IMG/VR virus record: IMGVR_UViG_3300021961_000020
Length of the DNA stretch: 64,000 nt
DNA from: a virus
Reading direction: 5' to 3' (one strand)
Each line of letters begins with the position of its first letter. Position 1 is the first letter of the stretch. The notes below the pieces were generated by a model. It was given only the letters and a program-made list of their open reading frames with translations, did not search any database and was not told the origin of the DNA. The position numbers were made by a program, and so were the translations under genes. Positions 41,498 to 55,234 of the stretch are shown here, piece after piece.

Positions 41498-41498
41498 C

Positions 41499-42323: not shown

Positions 42324-42361
42324 TGCAGGAAAAGCGGAGAGTTTAATGCGGTTTTTGCGGA

Positions 42362-42547: not shown

Positions 42548-42590
42548 CAGAGTTAAGAGCGGTGGGGGTGGTTCCCTCCCCCTGATGCCT

Positions 42591-42653: not shown

Positions 42654-42939
42654 CAAATGCTGCCATGAGCGGATTTAGGTTAAGTTTCATGGCAGTGTAG
42701 GGGCGAGTATCATTAATGTCCACAATCTTTCCTACTTGCGTTGAATTAATTGGGGCGTAATATTGTTGTGTCTTTGGGGCATAAAATCCCCAGATAGTGC
42801 TAACCTGATCGCTGTTATAACTGTACCTCCGATGATGAAGCAACCAAATACTAAGCATGCCCCTTTTGAAAGTTTTGACGGTGTAGGTATATCCTTCTGG
42901 GGCATCATGTATAAAAGAGGGAGGAAGTTCGAGTGTCAT
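42649..42939 (-). CDS. Conserved cyanophage hypothetical protein
   Basis: HDAPEGYTY.V..FKR...SIWL.HH..Y.Y....VSTIWGFY..KT..YYAPIN...GK.VDI..TRPYTAM.LNLNPL.AAF. Confidence 0.75.
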   Translation of the reverse strand: MTLELPPSFIHDAPEGYTYTVKTFKRGMLSIWLLHHRRYSYNSDQVSTIWGFYAPKTQQYYAPINSTQVGKIVDINDTRPYTAMKLNLNPLMAAFG

Positions 42940-43256
42940 TCGTCAGTGAGATGATCTTGGCATGCTATAGTATTTGGGTCACATTGTACATTCTCAGGTT
43001 TAACAAATCCTTGCATCCGACAATAAAGATCAGCAGACTTCATCAAACCTTTTTCATAATAATCAACCCATGATTTCAATTCATCAACTACATCATCATA
43101 GAACATTTCAGGTGTCAGATTCTCATCACTAACATATTCTGCAATAATATCACAGAGACGATCTTTCAGATGTTGACGATAATCAGAATGTGTAGATGTA
43201 GGCACAGGATCACTCCAAAAGTCTTCCAAATCCTTGTCAGTTGCAGTAGTAATCAC
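42936..43256 (-). CDS. Hypothetical protein
   Basis: 106 aa ORF with overlapping stop/start coupling. Confidence 0.6.
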   Translation of the reverse strand: MITTATDKDLEDFWSDPVPTSTHSDYRQHLKDRLCDIIAEYVSDENLTPEMFYDDVVDELKSWVDYYEKGLMKSADLYCRMQGFVKPENVQCDPNTIACQDHLTDE

Positions 43257-43405
43257 TTACAAATCTCCATGAGTTTATCCATAACAGGGCGAAGATCTTC
43301 CTCTTCAGTAGCACTGAGATCGATAAACATTTGCTCAATACACCAGAGCATCAAATCTGCTTGAGATTTGGTGACTTCAATAGTATTGAAAGTTGAGGTT
43401 GTCAT
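43253..43405 (-). CDS. Hypothetical protein, 50 aa (not in ORF track)
   Basis: MTTSTFNTIEVTKSQADLMLWCIEQMFIDLSATEEEDLRPVMDKLMEICK. Confidence 0.55.
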   Translation of the reverse strand: MTTSTFNTIEVTKSQADLMLWCIEQMFIDLSATEEEDLRPVMDKLMEICK

Positions 43406-43441
43406 TGATAGTTGAAAAGAATGAACTACAGTTGTATTTAA

Positions 43442-43678
43442 TCAGCAACAAGCGGGAGAATAGTTGCTGGGTTCGGTGAGGAAATCAGTCACCTCATAGT
43501 TAAGATCAAGACGAGCATTGACAGTTTCGATCATCTCTTTTTTGCTCATCAAACGCATGGATTTGGTTTGCTCATCGCCCATGAACTTGAGAGTATAAAC
43601 AAACTTGTTGGAGAGAATAGCGTGAGGGCGAAACTCAACAACCATAGCGCGGGATTGACCTTGTGAAGTGAGTTGCAT
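43442..43678 (-). CDS. Conserved cyanophage early hypothetical protein
   Basis: MQLTSQG..RAMVVEFRPH.IL..KFVYTLKF...MRL..KKEMIETVNARL..NY.VTDF; first gene after P4. Confidence 0.7.
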   Translation of the reverse strand: MQLTSQGQSRAMVVEFRPHAILSNKFVYTLKFMGDEQTKSMRLMSKKEMIETVNARLDLNYEVTDFLTEPSNYSPACC

Positions 43679-43702
43679 TTGATCGGTGTTCCTTTGACTC
43701 TC

Positions 43703-44242
43703 TTATAATACGGGAGGAGGGGGGGCAATGGGGTGAATGGTGGACACCTCGGCAACTGGCACAACAGTTTTGAACCGACTTGCATAATTGTATGCATAAC
43801 GGGTACGATTACCGTGGATTCCCCACCCTAACCAATACCACGATTTGTCCATATAATACTCGATAGATCTACCAGACTTCTTTAGAATCGGTTCGAGTTG
43901 TTTCCACTGAGATTCATTAACCATGTACCGAAGTTGTCCATCGAGACTGTTAGGATTGCAGTTGTACTTACGGCAGAATCTACCTAATCCAAAATAGCGA
44001 TTCTCTGTAGTCCATTGAATCAAACCAAAACCACCACGCATGCATCGATTGTAGGGAACTCTTGCTCCACCTTCACAGATATTGGTCTTAAATCCACTTT
44101 CTGCCTTTATATTGCCCATGACAGTTGCGAGAGCATTAACACCTCTAATTCCTCTCTTTTGTAGAAACTTGAGTGTTGCTTTCTCATTGTCGTTGCAATT
44201 AACGCATTGGACAATGGGGGCAGGAGGATGATCGTAAAGCAT
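43703..44242 (-). CDS. Phage tail-type lysozyme (Phage_lysozyme2-like)
   Basis: ALATVMGNIKAESGF...GGFGLIQWT..NRY.GL..F.......NSLDGQLRYM..E; catalytic Glu in AESG. Confidence 0.8.
   Translation of the reverse strand: MLYDHPPAPIVQCVNCNDNEKATLKFLQKRGIRGVNALATVMGNIKAESGFKTNICEGGARVPYNRCMRGGFGLIQWTTENRYFGLGRFCRKYNCNPNSLDGQLRYMVNESQWKQLEPILKKSGRSIEYYMDKSWYWLGWGIHGNRTRYAYNYASRFKTVVPVAEVSTIHPIAPPPPVL
43705..43763 (-). promoter_or_regulatory. Early promoter P4: GTGCCAGT-N7-GGTGTCCAC, 29 nt, TATTAT
   Basis: Repeat of the early-promoter motif, overlapping the 3' end of the lysozyme ORF. Confidence 0.65.
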
Positions 44243-44327
44243 TAAATCCGCCGTGTGTTATTCACGGAGTATAGAACATCTCTATATCGACTATAAAAAC
44301 TGAATTGCTGTCGATTAGAGCACAAAA

Positions 44328-44359
44328 GGTAGAACAGCAAAGTTCATTGCCATTCTACC
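44328..44359 (-). terminator. Hairpin/terminator downstream of the HicA-like gene
   Basis: GGUAGAAUGGCAA-UGAACU-UUGCUGUUCUACC, a 13-bp stem with 2 G-U pairs, followed by UUUU. Confidence 0.5.
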
Positions 44360-44364
44360 ATAAT

Positions 44365-44550
44365 TTATTTCATTTGTGCAAGTATGTTTTTCTCTATTTC
44401 TTTCAACCAACGCGCTTTACCTGGCGTTTTAGATGTAACAACGATTGCACCATTAGGACCGTGCCATGTATAATGACTGCCGATCCTATGTAACACAAAC
44501 TCATACGATTTCATGAGTTTTCGTAGATCTTTGTCGATTTTGGGGTTCAT
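44365..44550 (-). CDS. HicA-like mRNA interferase-fold protein (start re-assigned to 44550)
   Basis: KDLRKLMKSYEFVLHRIGSHYTWHGPNGAIVVTSKTPGKARWLKEIEKNI: HicA GSH motif in an alpha-beta-beta-beta-alpha arrangement. Confidence 0.65.
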   Translation of the reverse strand: MNPKIDKDLRKLMKSYEFVLHRIGSHYTWHGPNGAIVVTSKTPGKARWLKEIEKNILAQMK

Positions 44551-44588
44551 AATGAAGAGAGTGCGGGGGGACTCGATCCCACCTTTCC

Positions 44589-44627
44589 AATATACAGCAA
44601 AACAGACCCCAGGGCGAGGTCTGTCAA
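44589..44627 (-). promoter_or_regulatory. Promoter upstream of the HicA-like gene (TTGACA, ACAGACC/GGTCTGT inverted repeat, TATATT)
   Basis: Extended -10 TGCTGTATATT; TTGACA lies 27 nt upstream, with an inverted repeat in the spacer. Confidence 0.5.
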
Positions 44628-44648
44628 CAAATCGAAACAATAAATTAG

Positions 44649-44852
44649 TCACCCATATGTACGCATGAAATCATCAAGAGTGAAGATGTCATCGGTACAA
44701 GTTTCTGCAACTAATTCATCGTAAGACATATCTTTGAGCATCTCTTGATGCTCTTCTAAAGATAGATCTTCTTCAGGATCAAAGTCATCATGACATAAGA
44801 AATCATACTCTGCCTGAAGTGCATCAATTAACTCCTGCTTAGTATAATTCAT
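44649..44852 (-). CDS. Highly acidic hypothetical protein
   Basis: YTKQELIDALQAEYDFLCHDDFDPEED...; 21 D/E in 67 aa. Confidence 0.7.
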   Translation of the reverse strand: MNYTKQELIDALQAEYDFLCHDDFDPEEDLSLEEHQEMLKDMSYDELVAETCTDDIFTLDDFMRTYG

Positions 44853-45097
44853 AGATTGAGTGATCCTTTACTCTTAGACTTTTTACTAGCAGTCTCTAAT
44901 TTCTTGATATAGTTCATGGCACTGTGATAGTCTCTACAGAGTTTATCCTGCTGACCATCAACAATGACCATGAACTTTTTGCTTTGAATGACACGGATAG
45001 CAGCAAATCTACCATCCTTGCTAACATATCCTTCGTAAGGATTGTCAGCGTCTAAAATGCATGAATTGATGCAATAGAAGTCCTGATAATTAGACAT
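44849..45097 (-). CDS. Cyanophage hypothetical protein
   Basis: GYVSKDGRFAAI....SKKFMVIVDGQQDKLCRDY.SA.NYI. Confidence 0.6.
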   Translation of the reverse strand: MSNYQDFYCINSCILDADNPYEGYVSKDGRFAAIRVIQSKKFMVIVDGQQDKLCRDYHSAMNYIKKLETASKKSKSKGSLNL

Positions 45098-45254
45098 TCA
45101 TGTTGATCCGCATCACTTGCACATTTCCATATTGTTCTTTAATAATTTGCTCTGCACCTTGGCGACTTTGAGCGGGAACTCTTACAGTCTGCATACCAGT
45201 ATTGACAGAGTAAAATGTCACATCAGCAGTGCGAGTGTTGTTGAAACCGAACAT
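45090..45254 (-). CDS. Small beta-beta-alpha-beta protein, 54 aa (not in ORF track)
   Basis: MFGFNNTRTADVTFYSVNTGMQTVRVPAQSRQGAEQIIKEQYGNVQVMRINMNV. Confidence 0.6.
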   Translation of the reverse strand: MFGFNNTRTADVTFYSVNTGMQTVRVPAQSRQGAEQIIKEQYGNVQVMRINMNV

Positions 45255-45256
45255 GA

Positions 45257-45424
45257 TTAAGATTTAGATGGAACAGTAGTCAGAACTTTTTCAATTTTGC
45301 CATTAGGAAAAGCATCTTGAAACTTTTCCTTTGCTAGACTTACAGATTCTGCCATGATAACAGTTTCACGGACAGGACCAGAACCGTCAATACGGTAAGT
45401 AATAGTGTGCGCGAACTTTGCCAT
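45257..45424 (-). CDS. Small beta-beta-alpha-beta protein, 55 aa (not in ORF track)
   Basis: MAKFAHTITYRIDGSGPVRETVIMAESVSLAKEKFQDAFPNGKIEKVLTTVPSKS. Confidence 0.65.
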   Translation of the reverse strand: MAKFAHTITYRIDGSGPVRETVIMAESVSLAKEKFQDAFPNGKIEKVLTTVPSKS

Positions 45425-45430
45425 TTTCTA

Positions 45431-45598
45431 TCAACCTTTAGATGTACCGAGAATAGTTTTGATGGATACTACTTCTGCTGTAGGTTCCTCAGAAAGAAGA
45501 ACACGCTGAGCAGCAGCAGGAGAGTTTTTCATGATGGTTTTCTCTTTTTGAACACCATCTACAGTGTAAGTTACTACTTGTTGAAAATTGTTTGCCAT
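45431..45598 (-). CDS. Small beta-beta-alpha-beta protein, 55 aa (start re-assigned to 45598)
   Basis: MANNFQQVVTYTVDGVQKEKTIMKNSPAAAQRVLLSEEPTAEVVSIKTILGTSKG. Confidence 0.65.
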   Translation of the reverse strand: MANNFQQVVTYTVDGVQKEKTIMKNSPAAAQRVLLSEEPTAEVVSIKTILGTSKG

Positions 45599-45602
45599 GA
45601 GT

Positions 45603-46874
45603 TTATGCGAATGAATGAGCGGGGAGACCATCAACAAAGATGAGATCAATAACTTTCTGGAGACGATTTCTCGTTGCCAGTGATGCTTTGCCACAAAGAG
45701 GAACAGTTACAACACCGTGAGATTTACGGTACATTTGATACTGACCAGGGACAAGTTTGCCCTCCGCAATATCTTTTGCATCATCTTTATGTAGGCGAAT
45801 AACACGCCCAATAGTTTGTGCCATCTCAATGATGGGCAGATTACGCAGTAGAATAGTATGCGTCAGACCAGGCACATTGATACCCTCAGAGAGAATAGAA
45901 TAGTGGAAAACGATGAACTTTTTGTCATCATCACGACCCCATTCGTTGAGAGTCTCGAAGAACTTCTCACGACCAACTTTCTCACGGTTGACATATGCAC
46001 CGTGCTTGCTGGTGATGTGAAGAATGTCGTAACCCATCTCGTTGAGAGTGTCGAGAATGTCTGTACGAGAAAGCATCTGCCACAGCACACGAGTATTAGG
46101 TGCAGCAACAAGAACTTTAGCAGATTGTTCTGCATCAAGATCGTCAATGATGTTGAGCACCATCTCACGATCTACATCAGCAGCGTTATGCTTGTTACGC
46201 ACAAGTTCAGTCTCATGCACAACAAGTTGTGGGGGAATGATGCTACCATTGGCAACAAGTTCGGGAGCAGGAACAGTCTCCAGAGTATCACCGAAGACGA
46301 GTTTATTGTTCATGCCATTGGCATAAGGATTGCGAGAGAACTTGGGAGTCGCAGTAAAGAAGAAACTGTTATCTGCACTCATGGAAGTAGCAGCAACACC
46401 GACAAAGTGTGCTTTCTGAGTTGCATTGTGTGCCTCATCACAATACATCACATTGACAGCGATACCGCTATCAACAATGCGATGGAGACTGTGATAGGTA
46501 GTGAAGATCAGTTGATGCACATTAAGATTCTGACAAATCTCATTGTAACGAACAATGTTGTTTGCTTTGGTAGTCTTAACATGCACAGTCTCTCCACTGT
46601 GAACATGCATCACAGTAAAGTTCTCTTTGTAGACATACCTGTCAGTATGATCAAGATACTCCATGAACTCGGAGCAAAGTTGATTGGCAAGAAGAATACG
46701 AGGAGCAACAACAACAATAGTTTGTGCTTGTTCTGCATTATCAAGACGACGCACACAATCTTCCATCATGATGACAGTCTTGCCGCCACCAGTAGGAACA
46801 TAGACACAACCTTTCTGCGCGTCCTTGAGTGCATCAAGAGCGCGAGATTGGTGGGGTCGGAGAGTAAAAGGCAT
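45603..46874 (-). CDS. Superfamily 2 (DEAD/DEAH, ResIII-like) helicase
   Basis: Q-motif LRPHQ; Walker A PTGGGKT; VVAPRILLANQL; DEAH; TATP; ILSEGINVP; QTIGRVIR. Confidence 0.92.
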   Translation of the reverse strand: MPFTLRPHQSRALDALKDAQKGCVYVPTGGGKTVIMMEDCVRRLDNAEQAQTIVVVAPRILLANQLCSEFMEYLDHTDRYVYKENFTVMHVHSGETVHVKTTKANNIVRYNEICQNLNVHQLIFTTYHSLHRIVDSGIAVNVMYCDEAHNATQKAHFVGVAATSMSADNSFFFTATPKFSRNPYANGMNNKLVFGDTLETVPAPELVANGSIIPPQLVVHETELVRNKHNAADVDREMVLNIIDDLDAEQSAKVLVAAPNTRVLWQMLSRTDILDTLNEMGYDILHITSKHGAYVNREKVGREKFFETLNEWGRDDDKKFIVFHYSILSEGINVPGLTHTILLRNLPIIEMAQTIGRVIRLHKDDAKDIAEGKLVPGQYQMYRKSHGVVTVPLCGKASLATRNRLQKVIDLIFVDGLPAHSFA

Positions 46875-46894
46875 GTGTTTTTGTCGATGATGTA

Positions 46895-46953
46895 ATCATA
46901 GCAGGTCCAGATCCTTCCCAGACCGCATGGTGTGCGGTTTGTCTGCTGTCACA
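46895..46953 (-). promoter_or_regulatory. Early promoter P5: GTGACAGC-N7-ACCGCACAC, 29 nt, TATGAT
   Basis: Degenerate copy of the motif directly upstream of the helicase, with TG-extended -10. Confidence 0.6.
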
Positions 46954-47144
46954 GCGTCGAGCAGTGCCCGTTTGTTATAGTATTCAATCTCTCGCATATT
47001 ATATGCGCGATTTCTATCTTTTTCTGACATGATCTTGGTCGATTCTTCCCACCAAGGATGCTCATATTCCTTATTCATATTGATCTCTACCCACTCTTTG
47101 AGTGCAAAATAGCGATCTTTCCAGATTTGTGCCTCTTCAGTCAT
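46896..47144 (-). CDS. Hypothetical protein
   Basis: ORF with ATGA overlap to the DUF4385 stop codon. Confidence 0.5.
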   Translation of the reverse strand: MTEEAQIWKDRYFALKEWVEINMNKEYEHPWWEESTKIMSEKDRNRAYNMREIEYYNKRALLDAVTADKPHTMRSGKDLDLL

Positions 47145-47635
47145 TCTGCGTCTCTCCATTCTTTCCTCATTTTAACATATTCTGGGTCTGTTGCGACAAT
47201 ATCGCGCACAGTCTTAAAAATAGACGCTGCTTGTGCCTTTTCATTGGTCAAAGCATCTTTTTCTTGCGGAAGAATAGGTGCTCCTCCTCTATCACCAGTG
47301 TGATAGTAGGGAGGTTTGGTTGCATACTTCTGACCAGATTTATGATTAGCATAACGACGAGCGCGTGTGAATCCCATTTCTAGAAACTTACGGCACATAT
47401 CCATGCCAATAAAGTCTTTGTTCTCTTTATACATTGAGAACAGACCATAGATTGCGCGGGATGACTTTTCTGCTACTTCAATATTCCTGAATCTCCAATG
47501 TTCGCAAATAATGTGAGTGTAAGGGCGTACCAATAGCACTCCTTGCTCTCCCCTTCCAATACGATAAAGTCCACGAATTTCTGGATCTGTAAAGTCAAGA
47601 TTCTCATAATCGAGATCATAATCAAACTCTTTCAT
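47141..47635 (-). CDS. DUF4385 family protein
   Basis: FDYDLDY..LDF.....RGLYRIGRGEQGVLLVRPY...IC.HWRF...DFIGMDMCRKFLEMGFTRARRYANHKSG. Confidence 0.85.
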   Translation of the reverse strand: MKEFDYDLDYENLDFTDPEIRGLYRIGRGEQGVLLVRPYTHIICEHWRFRNIEVAEKSSRAIYGLFSMYKENKDFIGMDMCRKFLEMGFTRARRYANHKSGQKYATKPPYYHTGDRGGAPILPQEKDALTNEKAQAASIFKTVRDIVATDPEYVKMRKEWRDAE

Positions 47636-47801
47636 CAAATGCCTCAGGATAAGCAATGGGTTGAAGTTTGGTCAGAATGTTACTAAGTTGATAATACTCA
47701 GGACTATCAATAGGAGCACCAAGTAAGGTCTTTTGATACTTCCTACATGCATGAAACATCAGTCTAAGATCATCAGTTGTGAAGTTTTGCAAGTCTAACA
47801 T
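47622..47801 (-). CDS. Hypothetical protein, 59 aa (not in ORF track)
   Basis: MLDLQNFTTDDLRLMFHACRKYQKTLLGAPIDSPEYYQLSNILTKLQPIAYPEAFDERV. Confidence 0.55.
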   Translation of the reverse strand: MLDLQNFTTDDLRLMFHACRKYQKTLLGAPIDSPEYYQLSNILTKLQPIAYPEAFDERV

Positions 47802-47965
47802 TAATCATACTCCTTGTCATTAAGATAACGAATGACCGCTAATACTCTTTCGTTTGGATATAGATGTCTGATGTATTGTTCTGCATCTTCATAATCAATA
47901 GCATCAGTCACATCATGATAACGAGTGCAATGGAATTGCTCGTCCCAGGTTTCTACTGAATACAT
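47801..47965 (-). CDS. Small hypothetical protein (start re-assigned to 47965)
   Basis: MYSVETWDEQFHCTRYHDVTDAIDYEDAEQYIRHLYPNERVLAV. Confidence 0.6.
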   Translation of the reverse strand: MYSVETWDEQFHCTRYHDVTDAIDYEDAEQYIRHLYPNERVLAVIRYLNDKEYD

Positions 47966-47966
47966 T

Positions 47967-48191
47967 TTACTCGAAGATAGGTTTAACTGGAGGATTCCAT
48001 TCATCTCTCACTGCTTTCATCACATGTTTGGGAACACCATAATAACCCATGTGCATCCAAATGCAGTCAATATAGCGCAAATCTTCACGATCCGCGTCAA
48101 GAGTGAAAGCATCACAATACTGGACGATATCATAAGGAACTTGGACCTTTTTCCAGGTGATAGGTTCTTCAATAAAGAATGGTACGGTCAT
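47967..48191 (-). CDS. Cyanophage hypothetical protein
   Basis: PFFIEEPITWKKV.VPYDIVQYCD...DLRYIDCIWMHMGYYGVP. Confidence 0.65.
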   Translation of the reverse strand: MTVPFFIEEPITWKKVQVPYDIVQYCDAFTLDADREDLRYIDCIWMHMGYYGVPKHVMKAVRDEWNPPVKPIFE

Positions 48192-48336
48192 TTCTTATAG
48201 TGAATGATGTAATTGTTTTGCTCTCAATATGGGCAAGACATGATTCTAACACAAACCATTCAGAAGCGTATGAATCAACTCTGTGCTCTGAGATAGAACC
48301 ATCCACATATTTTACCCTAATGAGATACTTATTCAT
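48169..48336 (-). CDS. Hypothetical protein, 55 aa (not in ORF track)
   Basis: MNKYLIRVKYVDGSISEHRVDSYASEWFVLESCLAHIESKTITSFTIRNDRTILY. Confidence 0.5.
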   Translation of the reverse strand: MNKYLIRVKYVDGSISEHRVDSYASEWFVLESCLAHIESKTITSFTIRNDRTILY

Positions 48337-48704
48337 TCAGGATCTGATTTGTTAAATGCCACTGAACTCTCAGGATGACACCATTCATCATGCTGTGCCA
48401 TTGCTTCTTTGAGTGCTTCTGTTACATTCTCTTTGAAAGAACGATAAGGAATGAACAACTCATCATCCTCAGTCTTATAGTCCTGGTGTGTTTCTTTGAA
48501 CTTACGATCTACATCATACAGGAGATTTGATACGATGTCATTGATGACTTCAATAGACTTTGCGGTAAGTCCGTTCCAGGATGTATTGGGGAACATATCA
48601 TCCTTGACACGATCTAGCAGTGCTTTCTTACAATGCCACTGACTATCAAAGATTTGGGTAAATGCTTCCCAGTCATGTTGGGATTTGAAATGTGGGATAC
48701 TCAT
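48333..48704 (-). CDS. Cyanophage hypothetical protein
   Basis: MSIPHFKSQHDWEAFTQIFDSQWHCKKALLDRVKDDMFP. Confidence 0.65.
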   Translation of the reverse strand: MSIPHFKSQHDWEAFTQIFDSQWHCKKALLDRVKDDMFPNTSWNGLTAKSIEVINDIVSNLLYDVDRKFKETHQDYKTEDDELFIPYRSFKENVTEALKEAMAQHDEWCHPESSVAFNKSDPE

Positions 48705-48946
48705 TTTTTCTCCTTAACTACTTGATTCCATGCTTCTTTAAACTTACGATCCCAGTTGTCAGTATAAACGGGGAGGAAAGCATTGAGAGCAAGAGATACA
48801 TCTACCATTTTATCATAGTTATTGCTATCTACTGCTTCTTGTAGTTGTTCCATCATAAAACTGATGGAATTGATGTTGGAAAATGCTTCTTCCAACTTGT
48901 TCATCACATCCCAGTGTTCAGAGATTTGGTTGTTCATAAGGTACAT
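48701..48946 (-). CDS. Hypothetical protein
   Basis: WDVMNKLEEAFSNINSISFMMEQLQEA...NWDRKF.EAW. Confidence 0.6.
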   Translation of the reverse strand: MYLMNNQISEHWDVMNKLEEAFSNINSISFMMEQLQEAVDSNNYDKMVDVSLALNAFLPVYTDNWDRKFKEAWNQVVKEKK

Positions 48947-49298
48947 CCTTCACAGATTGAATAATGCCGTTGTCAAATAGAATTAACTTTCTAGGAAATG
49001 GTGCATAGTAAGCATCCCACTTTGCGGGGTAAATCTCAATGACCTTGAATATACTAATTGCTCTAACTACTCCATGTCGTCCATTGGGAACAGTTTTGAA
49101 TAGATTCCATGGAGTATTTCTTTCTTCTTTTGGTACATCAACAAAGTCATGAGTTCCAGAGTAATCAACTTCAAATAATTCACCAGCAGGACTAATCCAA
49201 TACTCACACATACAACACTCTAGATCTTTCGTCTGCAAGTCCTTTGAGAATCCAGGACCGAGATCATACGATGATCTAACAGTGTCGTACATGCCCAT
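48918..49298 (-). CDS. Conserved phage hypothetical protein
   Basis: MGMYDTVRSSY.LG...DLQTKDLEC.M.EYWISPAG.LFE. Confidence 0.7.
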   Translation of the reverse strand: MGMYDTVRSSYDLGPGFSKDLQTKDLECCMCEYWISPAGELFEVDYSGTHDFVDVPKEERNTPWNLFKTVPNGRHGVVRAISIFKVIEIYPAKWDAYYAPFPRKLILFDNGIIQSVKDVPYEQPNL

Positions 49299-49299
49299 G

Positions 49300-50004
49300 T
49301 TACTGATAAATGTGAAACATCATTCCATGATAACCAGAATTGTACTTTTTGCCAGATCCTTTCATCTGTAGGTGAAACAATTTGTCACCATCAAAAGTAC
49401 GAAACTCAAGAGTCGTGTTATTTAGTTTCCATTCACCAGTTTGAGTCAGTTTGTCAAGATCTGCAATAGAAATGAACTTAACATTGTTAGTCTTTTTGTT
49501 ACGCCAGATCATCGTAGAGACAGGATAACCATCATCAAGACCACGACGCACAATGACATCGAATATATCCATCTTATTGGCGTTCATAAACCCCAGGAAG
49601 GCGTCTTTAATGTGCTGAGGGATATTCTCTGCATAGACGCGATTCTGACGCTTCTCAGCGTCACTCAGGGCAATGTCCTTATACTGAAGGTGAACCAAAG
49701 ACATACCAAGATTGTTAGGCATGCCAAAGAACATCCTAATGAAAGACTCACAATCAGTACCCTGAAGTCCGAAATGCTCAACAAACTTACGGGAAGAGAG
49801 TAAGGCAACTTGGGTGTGATTCTTGCTGACATTCTTGACAGAATAGGCAATACCTGAATCGTTGTCATAAACATCAACCTTAGTCGCAGGACGACCGTCA
49901 GTTACATGATCGCCACCGAACAATTCATTCAGATAAGCAGGCAAATCGTCCTCATATTTGTGACCCTCTGCCTTTGCTAGTCGTCCCGCTTCGATAGCGT
50001 TCAT
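49300..50004 (-). CDS. PD-(D/E)xK endonuclease, HinP1I/MspI-like
   Basis: GRLAKAEGHKYE (E18)...TKVD...YSVK...TQV...F.HLQMKGSG; resembles HinP1I along its length as recalled; has a GGAGG Shine-Dalgarno and its own early promoter. Confidence 0.7.
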   Translation of the reverse strand: MNAIEAGRLAKAEGHKYEDDLPAYLNELFGGDHVTDGRPATKVDVYDNDSGIAYSVKNVSKNHTQVALLSSRKFVEHFGLQGTDCESFIRMFFGMPNNLGMSLVHLQYKDIALSDAEKRQNRVYAENIPQHIKDAFLGFMNANKMDIFDVIVRRGLDDGYPVSTMIWRNKKTNNVKFISIADLDKLTQTGEWKLNNTTLEFRTFDGDKLFHLQMKGSGKKYNSGYHGMMFHIYQ

Positions 50005-50025
50005 GTGTCCTCCGTTGATGCTCTT

Positions 50026-50084
50026 ATTATAGCAGCATCAGCAGGGTGTGGTCACTTTTTGGTCCGCTTCTTGAACTGTCCACC
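50026..50084 (-). promoter_or_regulatory. Early promoter P6: GTGGACAGT-N7-GCGGAC, about 29 nt, TATAAT
   Basis: Motif copy upstream of the nuclease; TGCTATAAT extended -10. Confidence 0.7.
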
Positions 50085-51452
50085 CATAATTGGATCTAAT
50101 CTAATCTCTCCATGCTTCTCAGGAGGATCGATCAATGGAGACATGAGAGGAAACTTATGTGCATAAGGTGCGCCTAATCCATATGCTGCCTGAACAAAAC
50201 TTTGATATGCTCCTAACATTCTGTAGGGTTCATCTGAGTCAGGAGACATTCTCTGACGCAGGAAGTATTCATCCTCTGCTTGTCTCCTAAAGTAATCAAG
50301 TCTGATATTCTCATGGCGGGGAATCTGCGCAAGTTTCTCATACACTTCAGCACGATTGAGAGAGTGCAGTTGATGATTCTCCAGAAGTGCGCATGCACTC
50401 AGTCTAGTCTGCTCCCAGAACTTTGACTTGTATCTAGAACCAAACTGCATGTAAAATGCCATGACAGTGGCAGTATCAACCTGACTATCTTCCCATCTCT
50501 CCTCTACCTCAAGTCTGTGGAAGTTTGATTGCTGTCTATCAGGATCATAGAACAAATACTCTCCAAGAGCATTAGCAATATCAGACTCAGTGTAACTATT
50601 GAAACCAGTGAAGTCGTCGTTAATACCTAACGCACGACCACATCTTGCGTATTTGTTATTCTTGTGAATGGCATACTCAGATACTTTATGATCCGATTCG
50701 TTCTTTCTATAAGAACAATGCTTCTTAACTTCACAGTGAGCATTAAAGTCTGCTACTGCTTCTTCTTCAGTTGTAATATCACTATCGTAAGAATAGATCC
50801 ATGTTTGTGCATCTTGTGTGGGAATACCAGTTAAGTAACCATGCTCACATGCAACATGCACAGTATAATCCCACTCACCAGGCAACTTACGATTAACTGT
50901 CAGTTTTGTATCTGTTGGGTTGAAATATGCATCTTTATATGCTTTCTTATCCCATAGTGCTCCCTTCACACAATCAATAACAAAACTGTATGCTTCACCA
51001 TCGATGTATGCATTGTCATCATCAAAAGTGAGTGACTTAATTCTCTTATCAATCAGTTTTACTTTACGATGCTGATTGGTAACATTCTCCCAGAAGAAGT
51101 CAACAAACTTACCTTCATCAAAGTGCAATCCAATTTCAGTGGGATCAAACATTGTATAGAAGTTCTTGTCTCTACGATTACCGAGACCAACAAACTTCAT
51201 GCCAAGTTTTTGTACTGCATCAAATCTTTGATAATAGTCGATTGCACTAATTGTGGTGTTTTGAGCAACAGAAGTAACCCAAATTGGACTCGTTTGGACT
51301 CCGAAATTGGGAACTTGATGAGAGCAATCCCGTATCCATGTAATTTCGTCATCTTGATATACACTATCCTGAAGGTCTCTATGACTGATAAGTTGAACCA
51401 GAGTGATCACAGCATCTGCACCAGCACCAATAATAGCAATTTTTCTACTCAT
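50052..51452 (-). CDS. Divergent tryptophan-halogenase-like flavoprotein
   Basis: N-terminal Rossmann KIAIIGAGAD; LHFDEGKF; YSFVIDC.G; GYLTGIP; Y.FGSRY.S.FW, resembling cyanophage PrnA-like proteins. Confidence 0.65.
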   Translation of the reverse strand: MSRKIAIIGAGADAVITLVQLISHRDLQDSVYQDDEITWIRDCSHQVPNFGVQTSPIWVTSVAQNTTISAIDYYQRFDAVQKLGMKFVGLGNRRDKNFYTMFDPTEIGLHFDEGKFVDFFWENVTNQHRKVKLIDKRIKSLTFDDDNAYIDGEAYSFVIDCVKGALWDKKAYKDAYFNPTDTKLTVNRKLPGEWDYTVHVACEHGYLTGIPTQDAQTWIYSYDSDITTEEEAVADFNAHCEVKKHCSYRKNESDHKVSEYAIHKNNKYARCGRALGINDDFTGFNSYTESDIANALGEYLFYDPDRQQSNFHRLEVEERWEDSQVDTATVMAFYMQFGSRYKSKFWEQTRLSACALLENHQLHSLNRAEVYEKLAQIPRHENIRLDYFRRQAEDEYFLRQRMSPDSDEPYRMLGAYQSFVQAAYGLGAPYAHKFPLMSPLIDPPEKHGEIRLDPIMGGQFKKRTKK

Positions 51453-51481
51453 CAGTCTTCAGAAATCTTTCTATTCGTCGT

Positions 51482-51488
51482 TATTTAG
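51482..51488 (-). promoter_or_regulatory. T4-like late promoter (CTAAATA) for the halogenase-like gene
   Basis: CTAAATAA about 30 nt upstream of the ATG at 51452, overlapping the upstream stop codon. Confidence 0.5.
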
Positions 51489-51637
51489 TTCAGAACAGGT
51501 AAAATGTCATAACTCTCGATTCCCTGCTTCTTCAGTTCTTCAATCCACCAAAGAACATCCTCTTGATTGTAAAAGACTGCTTTCTGAAAGGATGAATAAC
51601 CTTTCTTGGGACGCTTCCACTCAACTGCAAATTTCAT
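51485..51637 (-). CDS. Conserved cyanophage hypothetical protein, 50 aa (start re-assigned)
   Basis: MKFAVEWKRPKKGYSSFQKAVFYNQEDVLWWIEELKKQG. Confidence 0.65.
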   Translation of the reverse strand: MKFAVEWKRPKKGYSSFQKAVFYNQEDVLWWIEELKKQGIESYDILPVLN

Positions 51638-51677
51638 ACTCAAAGCTATACTTGTGGTGATCTTTGACAAAGATAGT

Positions 51678-52856
51678 CTACTTGGAATCCCAGGACTTGT
51701 CAACCGTGATGTTAGCAAGACGAAACTCATCGTCAACAAACTTCATCATGGACTTGTCATTGTGGACGACATAACCTTCAGGAGAAGTAGGATTGCGACC
51801 GATGAAGGTTTGGATGTTACCAACTTTGTTGAGTTGAGTAATAACCATCTTCTTAGCAGTACGGATAGAGATATATGCAGCAATCAGGAAATAGAGTTCT
51901 TTCTGATGATGAGAGATGAACATGAGACCATTGACTTTCATGTCATCATACTTATTCTGTGCAGCAAGAGTCTTCTTCTTTGCTTTCTCTGCATCAAGAG
52001 TCTGTCTGTAGAATACAGCAAACTCAGCAATGATCTTCTTGGTGTCAAGAACACCGCGACCAGAACGAATACGCTGATTGAAGAAACGCTTGAGTAGCAG
52101 ATTCATCATGAAAGTAGTTTGTCCCTCAGTTTGAATAAGATCGAGGAACTTAGAGCATTGCTTCAGCGCACCATTTGCTTTGTTGATGTGTGTGTTGAAG
52201 AGGAACACATCGCCTGCATCAAATAGAGCAGCACCAGTGGCATCAACAAAATTCGCACTGGCAACATAAACATCTTGAGTGCAAAGATACTTAGGTGCTT
52301 TCTTCTGCGGTACAACTTGTGCAGTCTGTAGAGTATCGCCCTTGTAAATCGTATGAAACACGATGCCAACCTTGGCGAGATGCACCGCATTACCTTCTCT
52401 GGAATTACGATTAACAGCGTAAGTGATAGTATTAGGAGTAAAGCAAATAACTCGCTTTCCACCGACAACACCGCTTCTCTTATCTTCTTGAGTGAAGAGT
52501 AGGTCACCTTGAACAATACCTGTGATGTTGAGTTGAGGTAGATACTTGAGGCAATCTTTGAGTTTGCTTGCAAGTTGACCAGTGTAGAAACGATCTACAT
52601 CGGTGTCATCAAAACAAATCTTTGGATTGACTTTATTGAACACAGACTTAGTGCCAACAAAGAAACGACCGCTGATGGGTTCCGTGCCACAAACAACGGC
52701 AGGAGCACCATCCCACTTTGTAGTGATACTCAAATCACTATCTTTGCCAGACAACATGTCACTGAACTGACGCAGGAAGTTGATAACATTGAACCCGCCA
52801 GCGGTGCCGCTGTTCAGGATCTCGTCTTCCAGGTGCTCTAGGTGAGTGTTCTTCAT
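51678..52856 (-). CDS. DUF6267-like protein; putative ligase-fold nucleotidyltransferase (start re-assigned to 52856)
   Basis: MKNTHLEHLEDEIL...ITTKWDGAPA...FFVGTKSVFNK...QGDLLFT...FTPNTITY...PEGYVV...KFV. Confidence 0.75.
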   Translation of the reverse strand: MKNTHLEHLEDEILNSGTAGGFNVINFLRQFSDMLSGKDSDLSITTKWDGAPAVVCGTEPISGRFFVGTKSVFNKVNPKICFDDTDVDRFYTGQLASKLKDCLKYLPQLNITGIVQGDLLFTQEDKRSGVVGGKRVICFTPNTITYAVNRNSREGNAVHLAKVGIVFHTIYKGDTLQTAQVVPQKKAPKYLCTQDVYVASANFVDATGAALFDAGDVFLFNTHINKANGALKQCSKFLDLIQTEGQTTFMMNLLLKRFFNQRIRSGRGVLDTKKIIAEFAVFYRQTLDAEKAKKKTLAAQNKYDDMKVNGLMFISHHQKELYFLIAAYISIRTAKKMVITQLNKVGNIQTFIGRNPTSPEGYVVHNDKSMMKFVDDEFRLANITVDKSWDSK

Positions 52857-52862
52857 GCTCTT

Positions 52863-52915
52863 ATTATAGGTCCTGACAGGGGTTGTGGGGTGCTCAGTGT
52901 GCCACTTCTTCATTT
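52863..52915 (-). promoter_or_regulatory. Early promoter P7: ...AAGTGGCACAC, 28 nt, TATAAT
   Basis: Half-conserved motif upstream of DUF6267; the AATAAGAGCAT downstream of the -10 is shared with P6. Confidence 0.6.
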
Positions 52916-53512
52916 GAACCCAGGACCATTTGCCCAGACCACCAGGGAGCGGCGAGTCCCACCAGTCACAGGGGTGACACGATGTAAGACATAACTCGGA
53001 AATACTATTACAGAACCGCGTTTGTTGTTGCCAATATGTATATCTCCGTCATTGAATTGCAACTCTCCACCTTCATATTCTGATGGATCTGATAGTTGTA
53101 CTGACATGCTCAACTTCCTCGGTGGCATGTCAGACATCATCATATTGTCTACATGCCAATTATAGCATGAATTATCGTCATGATATACAGTATATTGCAA
53201 ATCTTCGTGGAATCCATGAATATCATATCTCCAATACATTCCATTCATGCATCTAAGGATTCTTCCTAATTTCTCATAGATCCACTCACTATCTTCCTCC
53301 AATGTAATCCATGCATTTTTAGACTTTCTGATGCTTTCTACTACCGTCGTATTATCATCATTAGATCCTACTGTAGATGATCTAGGACCCAAAGATTCTC
53401 CATACTGGACAATACGATCACATTCCTCAGGAGTAAATCCATCCTCCCAAGATTCATAAAGAGTTTCACCCATCCCAAAGTTGGGAGGAGGACATAATTT
53501 ATAGATTCCCAT
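52910..53512 (-). CDS. 2OG-Fe(II) oxygenase (prolyl 4-hydroxylase/PKHD-like)
   Basis: YNWHVD...RKLSMSVQLSDPSEYEGGELQF...GSVIVFPSYVLHRVTPVTGGTRRSLVVW (HxD...H triad and 2OG-binding Arg). Confidence 0.92.
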   Translation of the reverse strand: MGIYKLCPPPNFGMGETLYESWEDGFTPEECDRIVQYGESLGPRSSTVGSNDDNTTVVESIRKSKNAWITLEEDSEWIYEKLGRILRCMNGMYWRYDIHGFHEDLQYTVYHDDNSCYNWHVDNMMMSDMPPRKLSMSVQLSDPSEYEGGELQFNDGDIHIGNNKRGSVIVFPSYVLHRVTPVTGGTRRSLVVWANGPGFK

Positions 53513-53521
53513 GATAAAAAG

Positions 53522-55222
53522 TTAGTAAATTACTCTGATGTCTCCAGATCCACCCTCATTGGGTCCGTTAATTACCTCATAATACTGATTAGATGAAGGT
53601 CCAGTGCCTTTAACAGCACGACCAGCAGCACCACCACCGCCAGGAACTGCCTGCCCAATAAATGAACCACTTCCGCCAGGAAGTCCCCAGTTTCCACCCG
53701 ATCCTCCAGGTCTTCCAGGTGTGCCAGGTTGTCCAGGAGTTCCAGCGGTTCCAGGTGTGCCAGGTTGTCCAGGTTGACCGTTACCTCCTCTGCTTCCAGG
53801 AGTTCCAGGAGTTCCAGGTTGTCCAGTTCCTCCAGGTTGACCAGGAGTACCAGCAGAGCAACCAGCAGCACCGCCAGGTTGTCCAGCCCTTCCAGAACCG
53901 CCAGGAGTGCCACTGCCGCCAGGTTGTCCACTTCCACCAGGAGTGCCAGGTTGACCAGACCCACCGCCACCTCCAGGGGTGCCAGGAGTGCCAGGAGTGC
54001 CAGGTTGACCCGTTATAACACTCGTTGGATAGTTCCATCCTCTACCACTTGTAGAGATGCCTAAAACGCCTTTGATACCGCCAGTGCCATTGTATCCGCT
54101 GGCGCCGCCAGCGCCACCAGATCCGCCGCCACCACCAGATCCACCAGAACCACCAGATCCTCCGCCGCCACCAGCACCGCCAGCACCACCAGAACCACCA
54201 GAACACCAAGTTCTTGCCTGTGCCTGAGATCTTTGCTGTGCTCCGCTTCTTTGTTGGTAACTTTGTCTATTCTGCCAACCTGCCCTTCTTTGTCTGGGCC
54301 AACCACCATTCGGGCGTCTATCGTTTCTTCTATTTCTCTCAGTTCTTCTTTGTTGGAAACCTCTTCTTTGTTGATAAGATGCTCTCTGTTGACCAGGAGA
54401 ACCAGGAGCACCGTTAGCACCAGAAGATCCACTAGATCCATTAGATCCACTAGACCCAGGACTACCAGAAGAACCATTAGATCCTCTTACACCAGCAGCA
54501 GCACCAGATCCATTAATACCATTAACGCCATCAATACCATCAATTCCGCCGCCACCACCAGCATAAATGCGAGCATCTGAACCCTCACATTCTACAAATA
54601 CTTTACGAATTGCAGGTGCTCCAGGATTATCGACATCGATAGCATGCCCTCCAGGTTGTCCACCAGTTGCACCACCAGCAGAATAGATTCCGTAACCAGG
54701 AGGAGTATTTGCTACAAATACTTTTAGGTTAGATGTTGCCTGATCGACAATCAAAGATGCTGTGCCAACAGTAGAACTAACGATTCTACCTTTTAATGTA
54801 AGATATTTGGTGATATTTTTATTTAAATTTCCATTCCAAGATGCATCAACAGATGGAGTGGTAGGACTACTTAAAGTAGCAGCGTTAAAGTTCTCTTCCT
54901 GAGTTGCAGATGCCTGCTCAATGACATACTCTTTAATAACACCTCTCAAGTCTTGAGGTGAAATAGCACCAGTAGTTCCGACACCTACATTTTCGGTTGC
55001 ATCCAACACATAAGGAAGGTGCGCTGAACCAGTAGATGATGGATATTTGCCAGTTGCATAATCATATGGTGCATCAAGATCAGTAACTCGATGCAACTCA
55101 CGAGCAGAAATTGGTGCTGTTGTGTCACCAATCGCTGCTCTAATTTCACCATAAGAGATGCGAGTCCCAGGAGTACCTGTTAGGAGTTGTTGAGTTTTTT
55201 CGCTCCAATCTCCAAAAGCCAT
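53522..55222 (-). CDS. Glycine-rich receptor-binding adhesin, T-even gp38-like, with G-X-P repeats and an Arg/Gln-rich insert
   Basis: GIYSAGG...PGGHAI, IYAGGGGG, GGSGGNWGLPGG, GGAAGRAVKG match the glycine-rich motif order of gp38; downstream of the fibre genes. Confidence 0.7.
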   Translation of the reverse strand: MAFGDWSEKTQQLLTGTPGTRISYGEIRAAIGDTTAPISARELHRVTDLDAPYDYATGKYPSSTGSAHLPYVLDATENVGVGTTGAISPQDLRGVIKEYVIEQASATQEENFNAATLSSPTTPSVDASWNGNLNKNITKYLTLKGRIVSSTVGTASLIVDQATSNLKVFVANTPPGYGIYSAGGATGGQPGGHAIDVDNPGAPAIRKVFVECEGSDARIYAGGGGGIDGIDGVNGINGSGAAAGVRGSNGSSGSPGSSGSNGSSGSSGANGAPGSPGQQRASYQQRRGFQQRRTERNRRNDRRPNGGWPRQRRAGWQNRQSYQQRSGAQQRSQAQARTWCSGGSGGAGGAGGGGGSGGSGGSGGGGGSGGAGGASGYNGTGGIKGVLGISTSGRGWNYPTSVITGQPGTPGTPGTPGGGGGSGQPGTPGGSGQPGGSGTPGGSGRAGQPGGAAGCSAGTPGQPGGTGQPGTPGTPGSRGGNGQPGQPGTPGTAGTPGQPGTPGRPGGSGGNWGLPGGSGSFIGQAVPGGGGAAGRAVKGTGPSSNQYYEVINGPNEGGSGDIRVIY

Positions 55223-55234
55223 GTATACTTAACC

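What the first reader, a model, noticed from the sequence alone, without database searches (positions are those of the whole stretch)
49300..50084. Solitary HinP1I/MspI-like restriction endonuclease under its own early promoter, with no methyltransferase nearby
The 234-aa protein resembles R.HinP1I as I recall it along its length: N-terminal G..AK..G.K.E with Glu at position 18, K.D, (S/Q)VK, ..F.G..P, R.....(F/L)..N...I...I.R.G and .Q.KG. No DNA methyltransferase is present in the 64 kb window. GCGC, the HinP1I site, does occur in this window (for example near 9844 and 41456), so the specificity probably differs or the phage DNA is protected in another way. Inference: a phage-encoded sequence- or modification-dependent nuclease for host-genome degradation, superinfection exclusion or competition with other phages.
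Basis: partly seen in the sequence, partly recalled or inferred. Interest (0 to 1): 0.7.

Follow-up and report, generated by a model that had tools for sequence, protein, structure and literature searches.

The report
Phage restriction enzyme; genome lacks ACGT
This marine cyanophage carries a HinP1I/MspI-type restriction enzyme with no protecting methylase, and it and about sixty relatives with the same lone gene have removed the 4-letter word ACGT from their DNA, so the enzyme probably cuts ACGT in host or rival-phage DNA while sparing the phage.

Summary
ORF 49300-50004 (-) encodes a 234-aa protein whose predicted structure matches R.HinP1I over its full length (Z 18.2) and MspI (Z 12.0). 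Family profiles hit only HinP1I in the PDB.

It keeps HinP1I's catalytic positions (E18, D44, SxK55-57) and the two residues that read the inner C:G pair (Q65, K215). It replaces the Lys that reads the outer G with an invariant Leu. No Pfam, NCBIfam or PADLOC model covers it. The family is almost wholly viral.

The new result is that the window has 0 ACGT sites against 96 expected.
- 62 loci with a solitary homologue: 5 observed, 1133 expected.
- A 93%-complete 180-kb relative: 0 of 267.
- 33 related loci without the gene, including six cultured cyanophages: 1019 of 1227.
- Sister clades where the nuclease abuts an N4/N6 methyltransferase: ACGT is tolerated, 172 of 395.

CCGG is also absent from the window, but it is equally absent from phages that lack the nuclease.

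My reading is a methylase-less restriction enzyme that most likely cuts A^CGT, with the phage protected by site purging. It would be used against host DNA or competing phages. Cleavage, specificity and biological role are inferred, not shown. Earlier first-stage notes of this scan flagged similar genes in other genomes, but none made the ACGT link.

The parts
49300..50004 (-). Coding sequence of the 234-aa HinP1I/MspI-fold nuclease. Catalytic candidates are E18, D44, S55 and K57. Candidate base-reading residues are Q65 and K215. Invariant L68 sits where HinP1I has K96.
   Evidence: ORF. Family alignment invariants. Profile hit to HinP1I only, E 0.006 and 7e-6. AF2 model pLDDT 88. Foldseek and VIA-align top hits are HinP1I and MspI. 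dN/dS 0.09-0.16 against relatives.
50009..50013 (-). Shine-Dalgarno GGAGG, 4 nt upstream of the ATG.
   Evidence: Read directly from the sequence.
50026..50055 (-). Sigma-70-like promoter candidate: -35 GTGACC (50055-50050), 18-nt spacer with TG, -10 TATAAT (50031-50026). The -35 overlaps the stop codon of the upstream gene.
   Evidence: Consensus scan, 10 of 12 matches. The scan is not enriched over shuffles. TATAAT is conserved at this position in relatives even where the upstream gene differs. Function not shown.
1..64000 (.). ACGT-free DNA: 0 ACGT in 64 kb against 96 expected, removed by synonymous codon choice in all three codon phases.
   Evidence: Codon context: NAC codons before Val 0 of 246, against 35% elsewhere; Thr ACG before a T-starting codon 0, against 109 elsewhere; Arg CGT after an A-ending codon 0, against 136 elsewhere.

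Best explanation
The gene encodes a small restriction endonuclease of the HinP1I/MspI structural family, probably acting as a monomer. It has one PD-(D/E)xK-type active site (E18 on helix 1, D44, S55-x-K57) and a second sheet that reads the bases. It most likely recognises ACGT and, by analogy with HinP1I (G^CGC) and MspI (C^CGG), cuts A^CGT one strand at a time. The phage has no cognate methyltransferase. Instead its genome contains no ACGT, so its own DNA has no substrate. Any ACGT-containing DNA in the infected cell, such as the host chromosome, co-infecting phages or plasmids, would be cut. The gene appears to be transcribed from its own host-type promoter in the variable early-gene region next to uvsW. 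Shown here: the fold, the conserved residues, the absence of a methylase, the ACGT purge and its link to the gene. Inferred: cleavage activity, ACGT specificity, cut position, timing of expression, and which DNA is the biological target.
For: (1) Fold. HinP1I Z 18.2 and MspI Z 12.0, with the next best at Z 6.9. Foldseek E 5e-11. HinP1I is the only PDB hit of two family profiles.
(2) Residues. E18, D44 and K57 are invariant or nearly so in 63 diverse members. Q65 and K215 align with HinP1I Q93 and K223. The HhaI structure paper (PMC7026639) says these read the G2:C2 pair, while K96 reads the outer G. K96 corresponds to an invariant Leu here. This fits a site with a kept central CG and a changed outer pair.
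(3) Site purge. ACGT counts (observed/expected) are 0/96 in the window, 0/267 in a 93%-complete relative, and 0/161 and 0/129 in two other large contigs. Pooled over 62 solitary-nuclease loci they are 5/1133, with 58 loci at zero.
(4) Controls. 33 related loci without the gene give 1019/1227 and none is at zero. They include cultured S-ShM2, S-RIM8, Syn19, S-CAM3, S-RIM2 and DSL-LC02. A complete 251-kb relative lacks the gene and has 442/540.
(5) Not simple shared ancestry. On a UvsW tree, nuclease-bearing ACGT-zero lineages interleave with nuclease-less ACGT-normal ones, for example L050 against L131 and L058 against L126/L129. A divergent branch in a different genome background has 0/42 ACGT with every other palindrome normal.
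(6) Methylase logic. Where the nuclease abuts or overlaps a PF01555 methyltransferase, or an unclassified SPPY-motif gene in L077/L078, ACGT is tolerated at 172/395. An archaeal homologue overlaps a C5 methyltransferase.
(7) Selection. dN/dS is 0.09-0.16, and ACGT is removed synonymously in all three codon phases.
Against: No biochemical data exist for any member of this family. The third catalytic position is Ser, not Glu, Gln or Asn, so activity could be weak or altered. The two profile alignments disagree on the 44-70 segment. I preferred the one that fits the catalytic spacing and the model's strands, but I could not inspect a residue-level structural superposition. Other 4-mers are also fully absent from the window without any link to this gene (CCGG 0/69), so host restriction alone can purge a site completely. 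Three loci with an abutting methylase (L063, L064, L067) still have 0 ACGT. Four solitary loci have 1-2 sites, and contig G003 has 8 against 145 expected. Loci are at most 20 kb, so 'no nuclease' is proven for the whole genome only for G006. Host ACGT content and methylation were not examined.
Confidence: 0.7

Rival explanations
1. The nuclease and the ACGT purge are linked only indirectly. These phages avoid ACGT because their hosts carry ACGT-specific restriction systems, and the phage nuclease recognises some other, probably longer, sequence.
For: Complete purges that do not depend on this gene exist in the same genomes. CCGG is 0 in the window and in five cultured phages lacking the nuclease, and GCGC is 0 in the low-GC relatives. 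Site avoidance driven by host restriction is well documented.
Against: ACGT is the only palindromic 4-mer whose absence tracks the gene: 58 of 62 loci against 0 of 33. This includes sister-lineage contrasts and an unrelated genome background (L073-75). ACGT returns where a methylase abuts the nuclease. The conserved inner-CG-reading residues fit an NCGN site.
Confidence: 0.13
2. It is a free-standing homing endonuclease or selfish mobile gene with a long asymmetric target, spreading between phages during co-infection.
For: The gene has a patchy distribution and sits in a hypervariable region between conserved genes. A PD-(D/E)xK homing enzyme, I-Ssp6803I, appears among the weaker fold matches at Z 6.9. 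One distant relative is a domain of a protein that a source names 'intein/homing endonuclease'.
Against: The full-length two-domain match is to 4-bp restriction enzymes, and the homing-enzyme match covers only the catalytic core. A long-site enzyme would not select for removing a 4-mer across the whole genome. Sister clades are classical R-M gene pairs.
Confidence: 0.05
3. It is a catalytically dead or repurposed DNA-binding protein, or a nicking-only enzyme.
For: Ser replaces the Glu, Gln or Asn of the (E/Q/N)xK motif. HinP1I itself is known as a nicking, sequential cutter (title of Horton et al. 2006, cited).
Against: E18, D44 and K57 are conserved across the family, and dN/dS is low. A harmless binder would not select for a total purge of its site.
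Confidence: 0.07
4. It is a modification-dependent nuclease that cuts methylated or otherwise modified host DNA.
For: The enzyme is solitary, as Type IV and Type IIM enzymes are.
Against: The fold relatives are modification-blocked Type IIP enzymes. Relatives are paired with methyltransferases, which fits only if methylation protects. A sequence-level purge is not needed if the phage simply lacks the modification.
Confidence: 0.03

Closest known systems
R.HinP1I (G^CGC), PDB 1YNM/2FKC
   Same: Full-length fold (Z 18.2, 208 of 234 residues aligned). It shares the N-terminal helix Glu18, the K-x-D motif, the x-V-K motif, and the Gln and Lys that read the inner C:G pair.
   Different: About 18% identity and no Pfam PF11463 hit. 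The motif is D-X10-SxK rather than D-X18-QxK. The outer-G-reading K96 is Leu. The two residues that include HinP1I's intercalating Phe fall in an alignment gap. GCGC is not avoided (49 sites). There is no partner methylase, and the gene is phage-borne.
R.MspI (C^CGG), PDB 1SA3
   Same: Same two-domain monomeric architecture (Z 12.0).
   Different: More distant than HinP1I. CCGG is absent from the window, but close relatives with a near-identical nuclease have normal CCGG (128/165 in G001), and phages without the nuclease also lack CCGG. CCGG is therefore not the target.
MaeII / HpyCH4IV (A^CGT) restriction systems
   Same: They have the predicted specificity and the expected 5'-CG overhang. 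MaeII pairs with an m5C methylase in a methanogen (PMC10113651). The one cellular homologue found here overlaps a C5 methylase in an archaeal MAG.
   Different: Those are cellular R-M systems with a methylase.
Virus-encoded restriction-modification systems (chlorella viruses; phage R-M pairs such as the S-RIM12 locus found here)
   Same: A virus-encoded site-specific nuclease. Chlorella-virus enzymes are generally thought to degrade host DNA (my own knowledge). Sister clades of this family are phage R-M pairs.
   Different: Those viruses protect themselves by methylation. This clade has no cognate methylase and protects itself by having no sites.
T4 endonucleases II and IV (denA, denB), host-DNA degradation
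   Same: The proposed role is the same: selective destruction of host DNA by a T4-like phage.
   Different: T4 tells self from host by base modification (hydroxymethylcytosine; my own knowledge) and uses unrelated nuclease folds. Here the distinction would be the absence of a 4-bp word.

Membership tests
HinP1I/MspI structural family of monomeric PD-(D/E)xK Type IIP restriction endonucleases | Two-sheet fold (catalytic sheet plus recognition sheet) superposable over the full length | tested here: met
   VIA-align Z 18.2 (HinP1I) and 12.0 (MspI), next best 6.9. Foldseek E 5e-11 and 1e-4. Model pLDDT 88.
HinP1I/MspI structural family of monomeric PD-(D/E)xK Type IIP restriction endonucleases | Catalytic constellation: Glu on the first helix, Asp at the start of strand 2, and (E/Q/N)-x-Lys on strand 3 | tested here: met
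   E18, D44 and K57 are invariant or nearly so and align to HinP1I E18, D62 and K83. The variable third residue is Ser55. HinP1I has Gln and HhaI has Glu; Asn in MspI is from my own knowledge. The assignment of the HinP1I catalytic residues rests on my knowledge of Yang et al. 2005, which is not held in the library.
HinP1I/MspI structural family of monomeric PD-(D/E)xK Type IIP restriction endonucleases | Sequence-family membership (Pfam PF11463 R-HINP1I or PF09208 Endonuc-MspI) | tested here: not met
   No Pfam hit at E up to 1 apart from a chance DUF1666 match. Ten distant family members also have no Pfam domain. Only family profiles reach HinP1I.
HinP1I isoschizomer (GCGC specificity) | Conservation of all base-reading residues (Q93, K96, K223), with the site avoided or protected in the carrier genome | tested here: not met
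   Q93 and K223 are kept as Q65 and K215. K96 is an invariant Leu. GCGC is present 49 times with no methylase.
Type II restriction-modification system | Cognate DNA methyltransferase encoded next to the endonuclease | tested here: not met
   None in the 64-kb window. In the 93%-complete relative G001 the only DNA methylase found is a D12-class enzyme about 80 kb away. The feature is met in sister clades.
Type II restriction endonuclease (activity) | Mg-dependent cleavage at a defined position in a short specific site | not testable with these tools
   Specificity for ACGT is inferred from genome-wide site absence tied to the gene and from residue conservation.
MaeII/HpyCH4IV (A^CGT) enzyme families | Detectable sequence similarity to a characterised ACGT-cutting enzyme | not tested
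   No reference sequence was available. A profile search of 400 genomes of the archaeal phylum found only the MAG already known.
Homing endonuclease | Long (over 12 bp) asymmetric target in the empty allele of related genomes | not testable with these tools
   Indirect evidence against: the 4-mer purge and the R-M-paired relatives.

The most novel reading that the evidence does not exclude
This would be restriction without modification used as a phage weapon. A widespread clade of uncultured marine T4-like cyanophages would tell self from non-self DNA by having deleted every copy of one 4-bp word (ACGT) from genomes of roughly 180 kb. A lone A^CGT endonuclease could then shred the host chromosome and co-infecting phages. 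The family would also record the evolutionary path from phage-borne R-M pairs (nuclease plus abutting methylase, ACGT tolerated) to methylase loss plus a complete purge.
Probability: 0.55. Interest if true: 0.85.

Novelty: new variant of a known kind. Interest (0 to 1): 0.74.

Why it matters
If the enzyme cuts ACGT, it shows a simple and so far undescribed way for a virulent phage to aim a nuclease at everything except itself. No base modification, inhibitor or compartment is needed; the phage simply lacks the word. That bears on how cyanophages without modified bases degrade host DNA selectively and recycle nucleotides in nutrient-poor oceans. It also bears on how co-infecting phages exclude one another. 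It explains a striking compositional signature (0 ACGT in 180 kb) that can serve as a marker in metagenomes. It adds an uncharacterised, Pfam-less branch to the HinP1I/MspI family, with a probable new specificity that would let base-reading residues be compared across NCGN sites. It also identifies an unannotated restriction gene in the cultured phage S-RIM12. The prediction can be tested directly by cell-free expression and digestion.

Tried and rejected
Tools and sources that gave nothing:
- Direct sequence searches gave no named family: Pfam, NCBIfam, PADLOC and a single-sequence PDB search. PHROGs gave only phrog_25220, of unknown function.
- No whole genome is held for the window.
- The two original HinP1I papers are not held. 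Residue roles came from the HhaI paper and from my own knowledge.

Ideas tested and dropped:
- CCGG as the target. Close relatives with the same enzyme have normal CCGG, and nuclease-less cultured phages also lack CCGG.
- GCGC as the target. It is present 49 times.
- DUF6267 as a linked partner. It occurs in 470 phage records, against 11 for distant nuclease homologues.
- The abutting 126-aa downstream ORF as an inhibitor or partner. It also occurs in nuclease-less loci and is missing from many nuclease loci.
- A second depleted word that could be the true site. Among 4-, 5- and 6-mers, only RGCY words and GGTACC were depleted besides ACGT and CCGG. GGCC and AGCT vary among relatives and are also low in phages lacking the gene. 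AGCC and GGTACC were not compared across relatives.

Searches that found nothing:
- Archaeal relatives that might link to MaeII: none among 400 sampled genomes.
- Names for distant members: only 'hypothetical protein'.
- Literature on cyanophage ACGT avoidance, or on phage nucleases protected by site absence: nothing found in the held library. That is not proof of absence.

The apparent exceptions L095 and L100 were resolved. In L095 the nuclease region is replaced by foreign DNA that holds both of its ACGT sites. L100 starts just downstream of the gene's position.

Full report
THE GENE

The ORF listing gives a 234-aa ORF at 49300-50004 on the minus strand. A GGAGG ribosome-binding site lies 4 nt upstream of its ATG. 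A 47-bp spacer separates it from the stop codon of a 466-aa tryptophan-halogenase-like gene. The window is a T4-like cyanomyovirus of the Kyanoviridae type. It encodes gp6, gp8, gp25, a neck protein, a tail-sheath stabiliser, the Kyano_Gp96 protein, UvsW, DUF4385, DUF6267 and a 2OG-Fe(II) oxygenase. The nuclease sits in the small-gene region about 2.4 kb upstream of uvsW.

WHAT THE PROTEIN IS

Single-sequence searches find no named family. The only hit is phrog_25220, of unknown function. Homologues number at least 120 clusters at 90% identity, almost all unnamed and from marine metagenomes.

An exhaustive profile search of 1.84 billion representatives gives 187 clusters. Ten distant members carry no Pfam domain. 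Those that have a name are called 'hypothetical protein'.

A profile of 30 members hits only R.HinP1I in the PDB (E 0.006). A profile of 63 diverse members hits only HinP1I, at E 7e-6 and across the full length.

The AlphaFold model (pLDDT 88, pTM 0.85) matches HinP1I at Foldseek E 5e-11 and MspI at 1e-4. A second look with VIA-align gives HinP1I Z 18.2 (rmsd 2.9 over 208 residues) and MspI Z 12.0. All other chains score Z 6.9 or less. The ESM Atlas lists viral 'hypothetical' clusters first and a PF11463 R-HINP1I cluster of giant viruses at rank 29.

RESIDUES

E18, K42, D44, S55, K57, Q65, G94, R122, Q213, K215 and F230 are invariant or nearly so across the 63 diverse members. L68 is invariant in the 30-member alignment and conserved in the clade comparison.

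The alignments place the residues as follows:

| Window protein | HinP1I |
|---|---|
| E18 | E18 |
| K42-x-D44 | K60-S-D62 |
| S55-V-K57 | Q81-V-K83 |
| T64-Q65 | N92-Q93 |
| L68 | K96 |
| Q213-M-K215-G | Q221-R-K223-G |

The HhaI structure paper states that HinP1I K96 reads the outer guanine, and that K223 with Q93 reads the G2:C2 pair (PMC7026639). The two residues that include HinP1I's DNA-intercalating Phe fall in an alignment gap.

One caveat applies. The two HMM alignments differ for residues 44-70. I prefer the register because it matches the catalytic D...xK spacing and the strands of the model. No residue-level superposition was available.

dN/dS against ungapped relatives is 0.09-0.16, so the gene is under purifying selection.

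NO METHYLASE

Pfam scans of 20 window ORFs found no DNA methyltransferase. Motif scans for amino-methylase motif IV and the C5 PCQ motif, run over the 55 non-overlapping ORFs of 60 aa or more, found nothing. Neither did tblastn with three phage methylases.

A relative contig of 179,846 bp (G001) is rated 93% complete and has a nuclease 77% identical to the window's. It has no PF00145, PF01555 or PF05869 gene. Its only DNA methylase is a D12-class enzyme about 80 kb from the nuclease.

THE ACGT PURGE

A palindrome census of the window shows 0 ACGT against 96 expected under a second-order Markov model. It also shows 0 CCGG (69 expected), 3 GGCC (45 expected) and 33 AGCT (138 expected). GCGC is near normal at 49 of 69. 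One-mismatch neighbours of ACGT are common, at 78-381 copies each.

The purge works through synonymous choices in all three codon phases:
- NAC codons are never used before Val (0 of 246, against 35% elsewhere).
- Thr ACG is never followed by a codon starting with T (0, against 109 uses elsewhere).
- Arg CGT never follows a codon ending in A (0, against 136 elsewhere).

LINK BETWEEN THE PURGE AND THE GENE

I fetched 79 viral loci and one cellular locus carrying homologues. I also fetched 57 loci anchored on UvsW, six large contigs in full and seven stretches of cultured cyanophages.

Whole contigs:

| Contig | Nuclease | ACGT observed/expected |
|---|---|---|
| G001 | solitary | 0/267 |
| G002 | solitary | 0/161 |
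| G004 | solitary | 0/129 |
| G003 | solitary | 8/145 |
| G006 (complete, 251 kb) | none | 442/540 |
| G007 | none | 183/193 |

Pooled loci:

| Category | Loci | ACGT observed/expected | Loci with zero ACGT |
|---|---|---|---|
| Solitary nuclease (974 kb) | 62 | 5/1133 | 58 |
| Nuclease with abutting N4/N6-type methylase | 14 | 172/395 | 3 |
| Nuclease with abutting phage Dam | 3 | 0/42 | 3 |
| No nuclease in locus | 33 | 1019/1227 | 0 |

No other palindrome separates these classes. Cultured S-ShM2, S-RIM8, Syn19, S-CAM3 and S-RIM2 lack the gene. They have ACGT at 0.77-0.92 of expectation, yet CCGG at 0 and low GGCC and AGCT. So the CCGG, GGCC and AGCT avoidance is a general trait of marine Synechococcus myoviruses. 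Only the ACGT purge goes with the nuclease. G001 and G002 carry the nuclease with normal CCGG (128/165 and 93/109).

The link is not simple shared ancestry.
- G003 is more distant from the window by UvsW (43% identity) than the nuclease-less G006 and G007 (52-56%), yet it carries the gene and the purge.
- On the UvsW tree, nuclease-bearing ACGT-zero lineages sit as sisters to nuclease-less ACGT-normal lineages. L050 (0/12) is sister to L131 (35/45). L058 (0/15) is sister to L126 (21/35) and L129 (5/7).
- Two apparent exceptions dissolve. L100 begins just downstream of where the gene would be. L095 is 97.6% identical to a nuclease-bearing contig up to the point just downstream of where that contig's nuclease gene ends. 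Beyond it, 1.7 kb of unrelated DNA takes the nuclease's place and holds both of the contig's ACGT sites.

METHYLASE-LINKED RELATIVES

In loci L063-L071 and L079 and in cultured cyanophage S-RIM12, the nuclease gene abuts or overlaps, by 3-13 bp, a 239-272-aa TSPPY methyltransferase. In L072 that gene lies about 1.2 kb away. It is PF01555, at E 4e-45 and 1e-45 for the two copies scanned.

In L077 and L078 the nuclease abuts a 417-425-aa SPPY protein. In the one cellular hit, an archaeal MAG, it overlaps by 4 bp a C5 methyltransferase that lies among ordinary cellular genes.

These are classical R-M arrangements, which supports the view that the family are true restriction enzymes. The key residues are the same in the solitary clade and in the L063-L072 and L079 loci, so the specificity is probably shared. 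The S-RIM12 copy is much more divergent, with K215 replaced by Glu. It is not annotated in the GenBank record.

PROMOTER

The spacer holds GTGACC, 18 nt (with TG), then TATAAT. Consensus matches of this kind are not enriched in the region. The TATAAT is, however, conserved before the gene in relatives, even where the upstream gene differs. Low-GC relatives (L041, L045) carry GACA-N10-(T/C)GTC upstream. Earlier notes of this scan call that the cyanophage early-promoter cassette. 'Own promoter' is therefore plausible and 'early' is inferred.

INTERPRETATION

The best reading is a solitary HinP1I-fold restriction endonuclease that recognises ACGT, probably cutting A^CGT. The phage's own DNA is immune because it has no sites. 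Host DNA and typical competing cyanophages, at roughly two ACGT per kb, would be cut many times.

Which of these is the main target cannot be decided here. I give about 0.95 to the fold and nuclease assignment, about 0.75 to ACGT as the site, and about 0.7 to the whole account.

The main rival is that host restriction drives the ACGT purge and the phage enzyme has another target. The complete CCGG purges, which do not depend on this gene, keep that rival alive.

I found no paper in the held library that describes this gene family, ACGT-free cyanophages, or a phage nuclease protected by site absence. First-stage notes of this scan had flagged the same kind of gene in two other genomes without the ACGT link.

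Noticed in passing
window 1-64000: Besides ACGT, the window has 0 CCGG (69 expected) and 0 GGTACC (30 expected, both strands). It is strongly depleted in RGCY words: GGCC 0.06, AGCC/GGCT 0.19 and AGCT 0.23 of expectation. CCGG, GGCC and AGCT avoidance is shared by five cultured marine Synechococcus myoviruses that lack the nuclease, so it probably reflects host restriction systems (RGCY is a CviJI-like site).
   Followed up: partly
L136:19863-20531 (Cyanophage S-RIM12 KX349327.1, about 37786-38454): An unannotated 222-aa ORF with a GTG start is a divergent homologue of the nuclease. It overlaps by 4 bp the annotated 'putative DNA modification methylase'. This looks like an overlooked R-M gene pair in a cultured cyanophage. 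S-CAM22 and Sf-CH1b carry the same type, annotated as hypothetical.
   Followed up: partly
L095:1-1757 against L094: The contig is 97.6% identical to a nuclease-bearing relative from the point just downstream of where that relative's nuclease gene ends. Beyond it, 1.7 kb of unrelated DNA takes the nuclease's place and holds the contig's only two ACGT sites. It is either a natural recombinant that lost the gene or a chimeric assembly.
   Followed up: partly
L001:3714-5857 (archaeal MAG NZWD01000043.1): This is the only cellular hit found by the pattern-based scan of 185,579 species genomes. A C5 cytosine methyltransferase overlaps a nuclease homologue by 4 bp, among ordinary cellular genes. The arrangement recalls the MaeII (A^CGT, m5C) system of a methanogen, but I did not test the link.
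   Followed up: partly
L073, L074, L075: A divergent branch of the nuclease abuts a small phage Dam-type methylase (PF05869). The genomes have normal CCGG, GCGC and GGCC but 0 ACGT (0/42 pooled). It is an independent genome background with the same signature.
   Followed up: partly
G004 (L159-L164) and loci L022-L045: The low-GC (about 35%) relatives, probably Prochlorococcus-type, also lack GCGC, CGCG and CCGG entirely (0/36, 0/16 and 0/33 in 110 kb). G006 is strongly depleted in GATC (217/956) and CCGG (1/147).
   Followed up: no
G003 (L165-L171), positions 10486, 26899, 29413, 29935, 30054, 38588, 45105, 70618: This 126-kb contig carries a solitary nuclease (45% identical) and still has 8 ACGT sites against 145 expected. 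I did not check whether they lie in recently acquired DNA or the enzyme there is weakened.
   Followed up: no
proteins P0217 (1299 aa) and P0191 (1099 aa): Distant family members occur as domains of very large proteins. In P0217 it is the C-terminal domain (residues 1095-1293) of a protein that one source names 'intein/homing endonuclease', on a 249-kb contig.
   Followed up: no
window 51678-52913 (-): The DUF6267 protein contains a K-W-D-G motif like motif I of nucleotidyl-transferase ligases. Homologues occur in 470 phage records, mostly cyanophages, so it is not specifically linked to the nuclease.
   Followed up: partly
window 48918-49298 (-): A 126-aa ORF starts 1 nt after the nuclease stop codon, so the two may be translationally coupled. 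Homologues also occur in nuclease-less loci, so it is not an obligate partner.
   Followed up: yes
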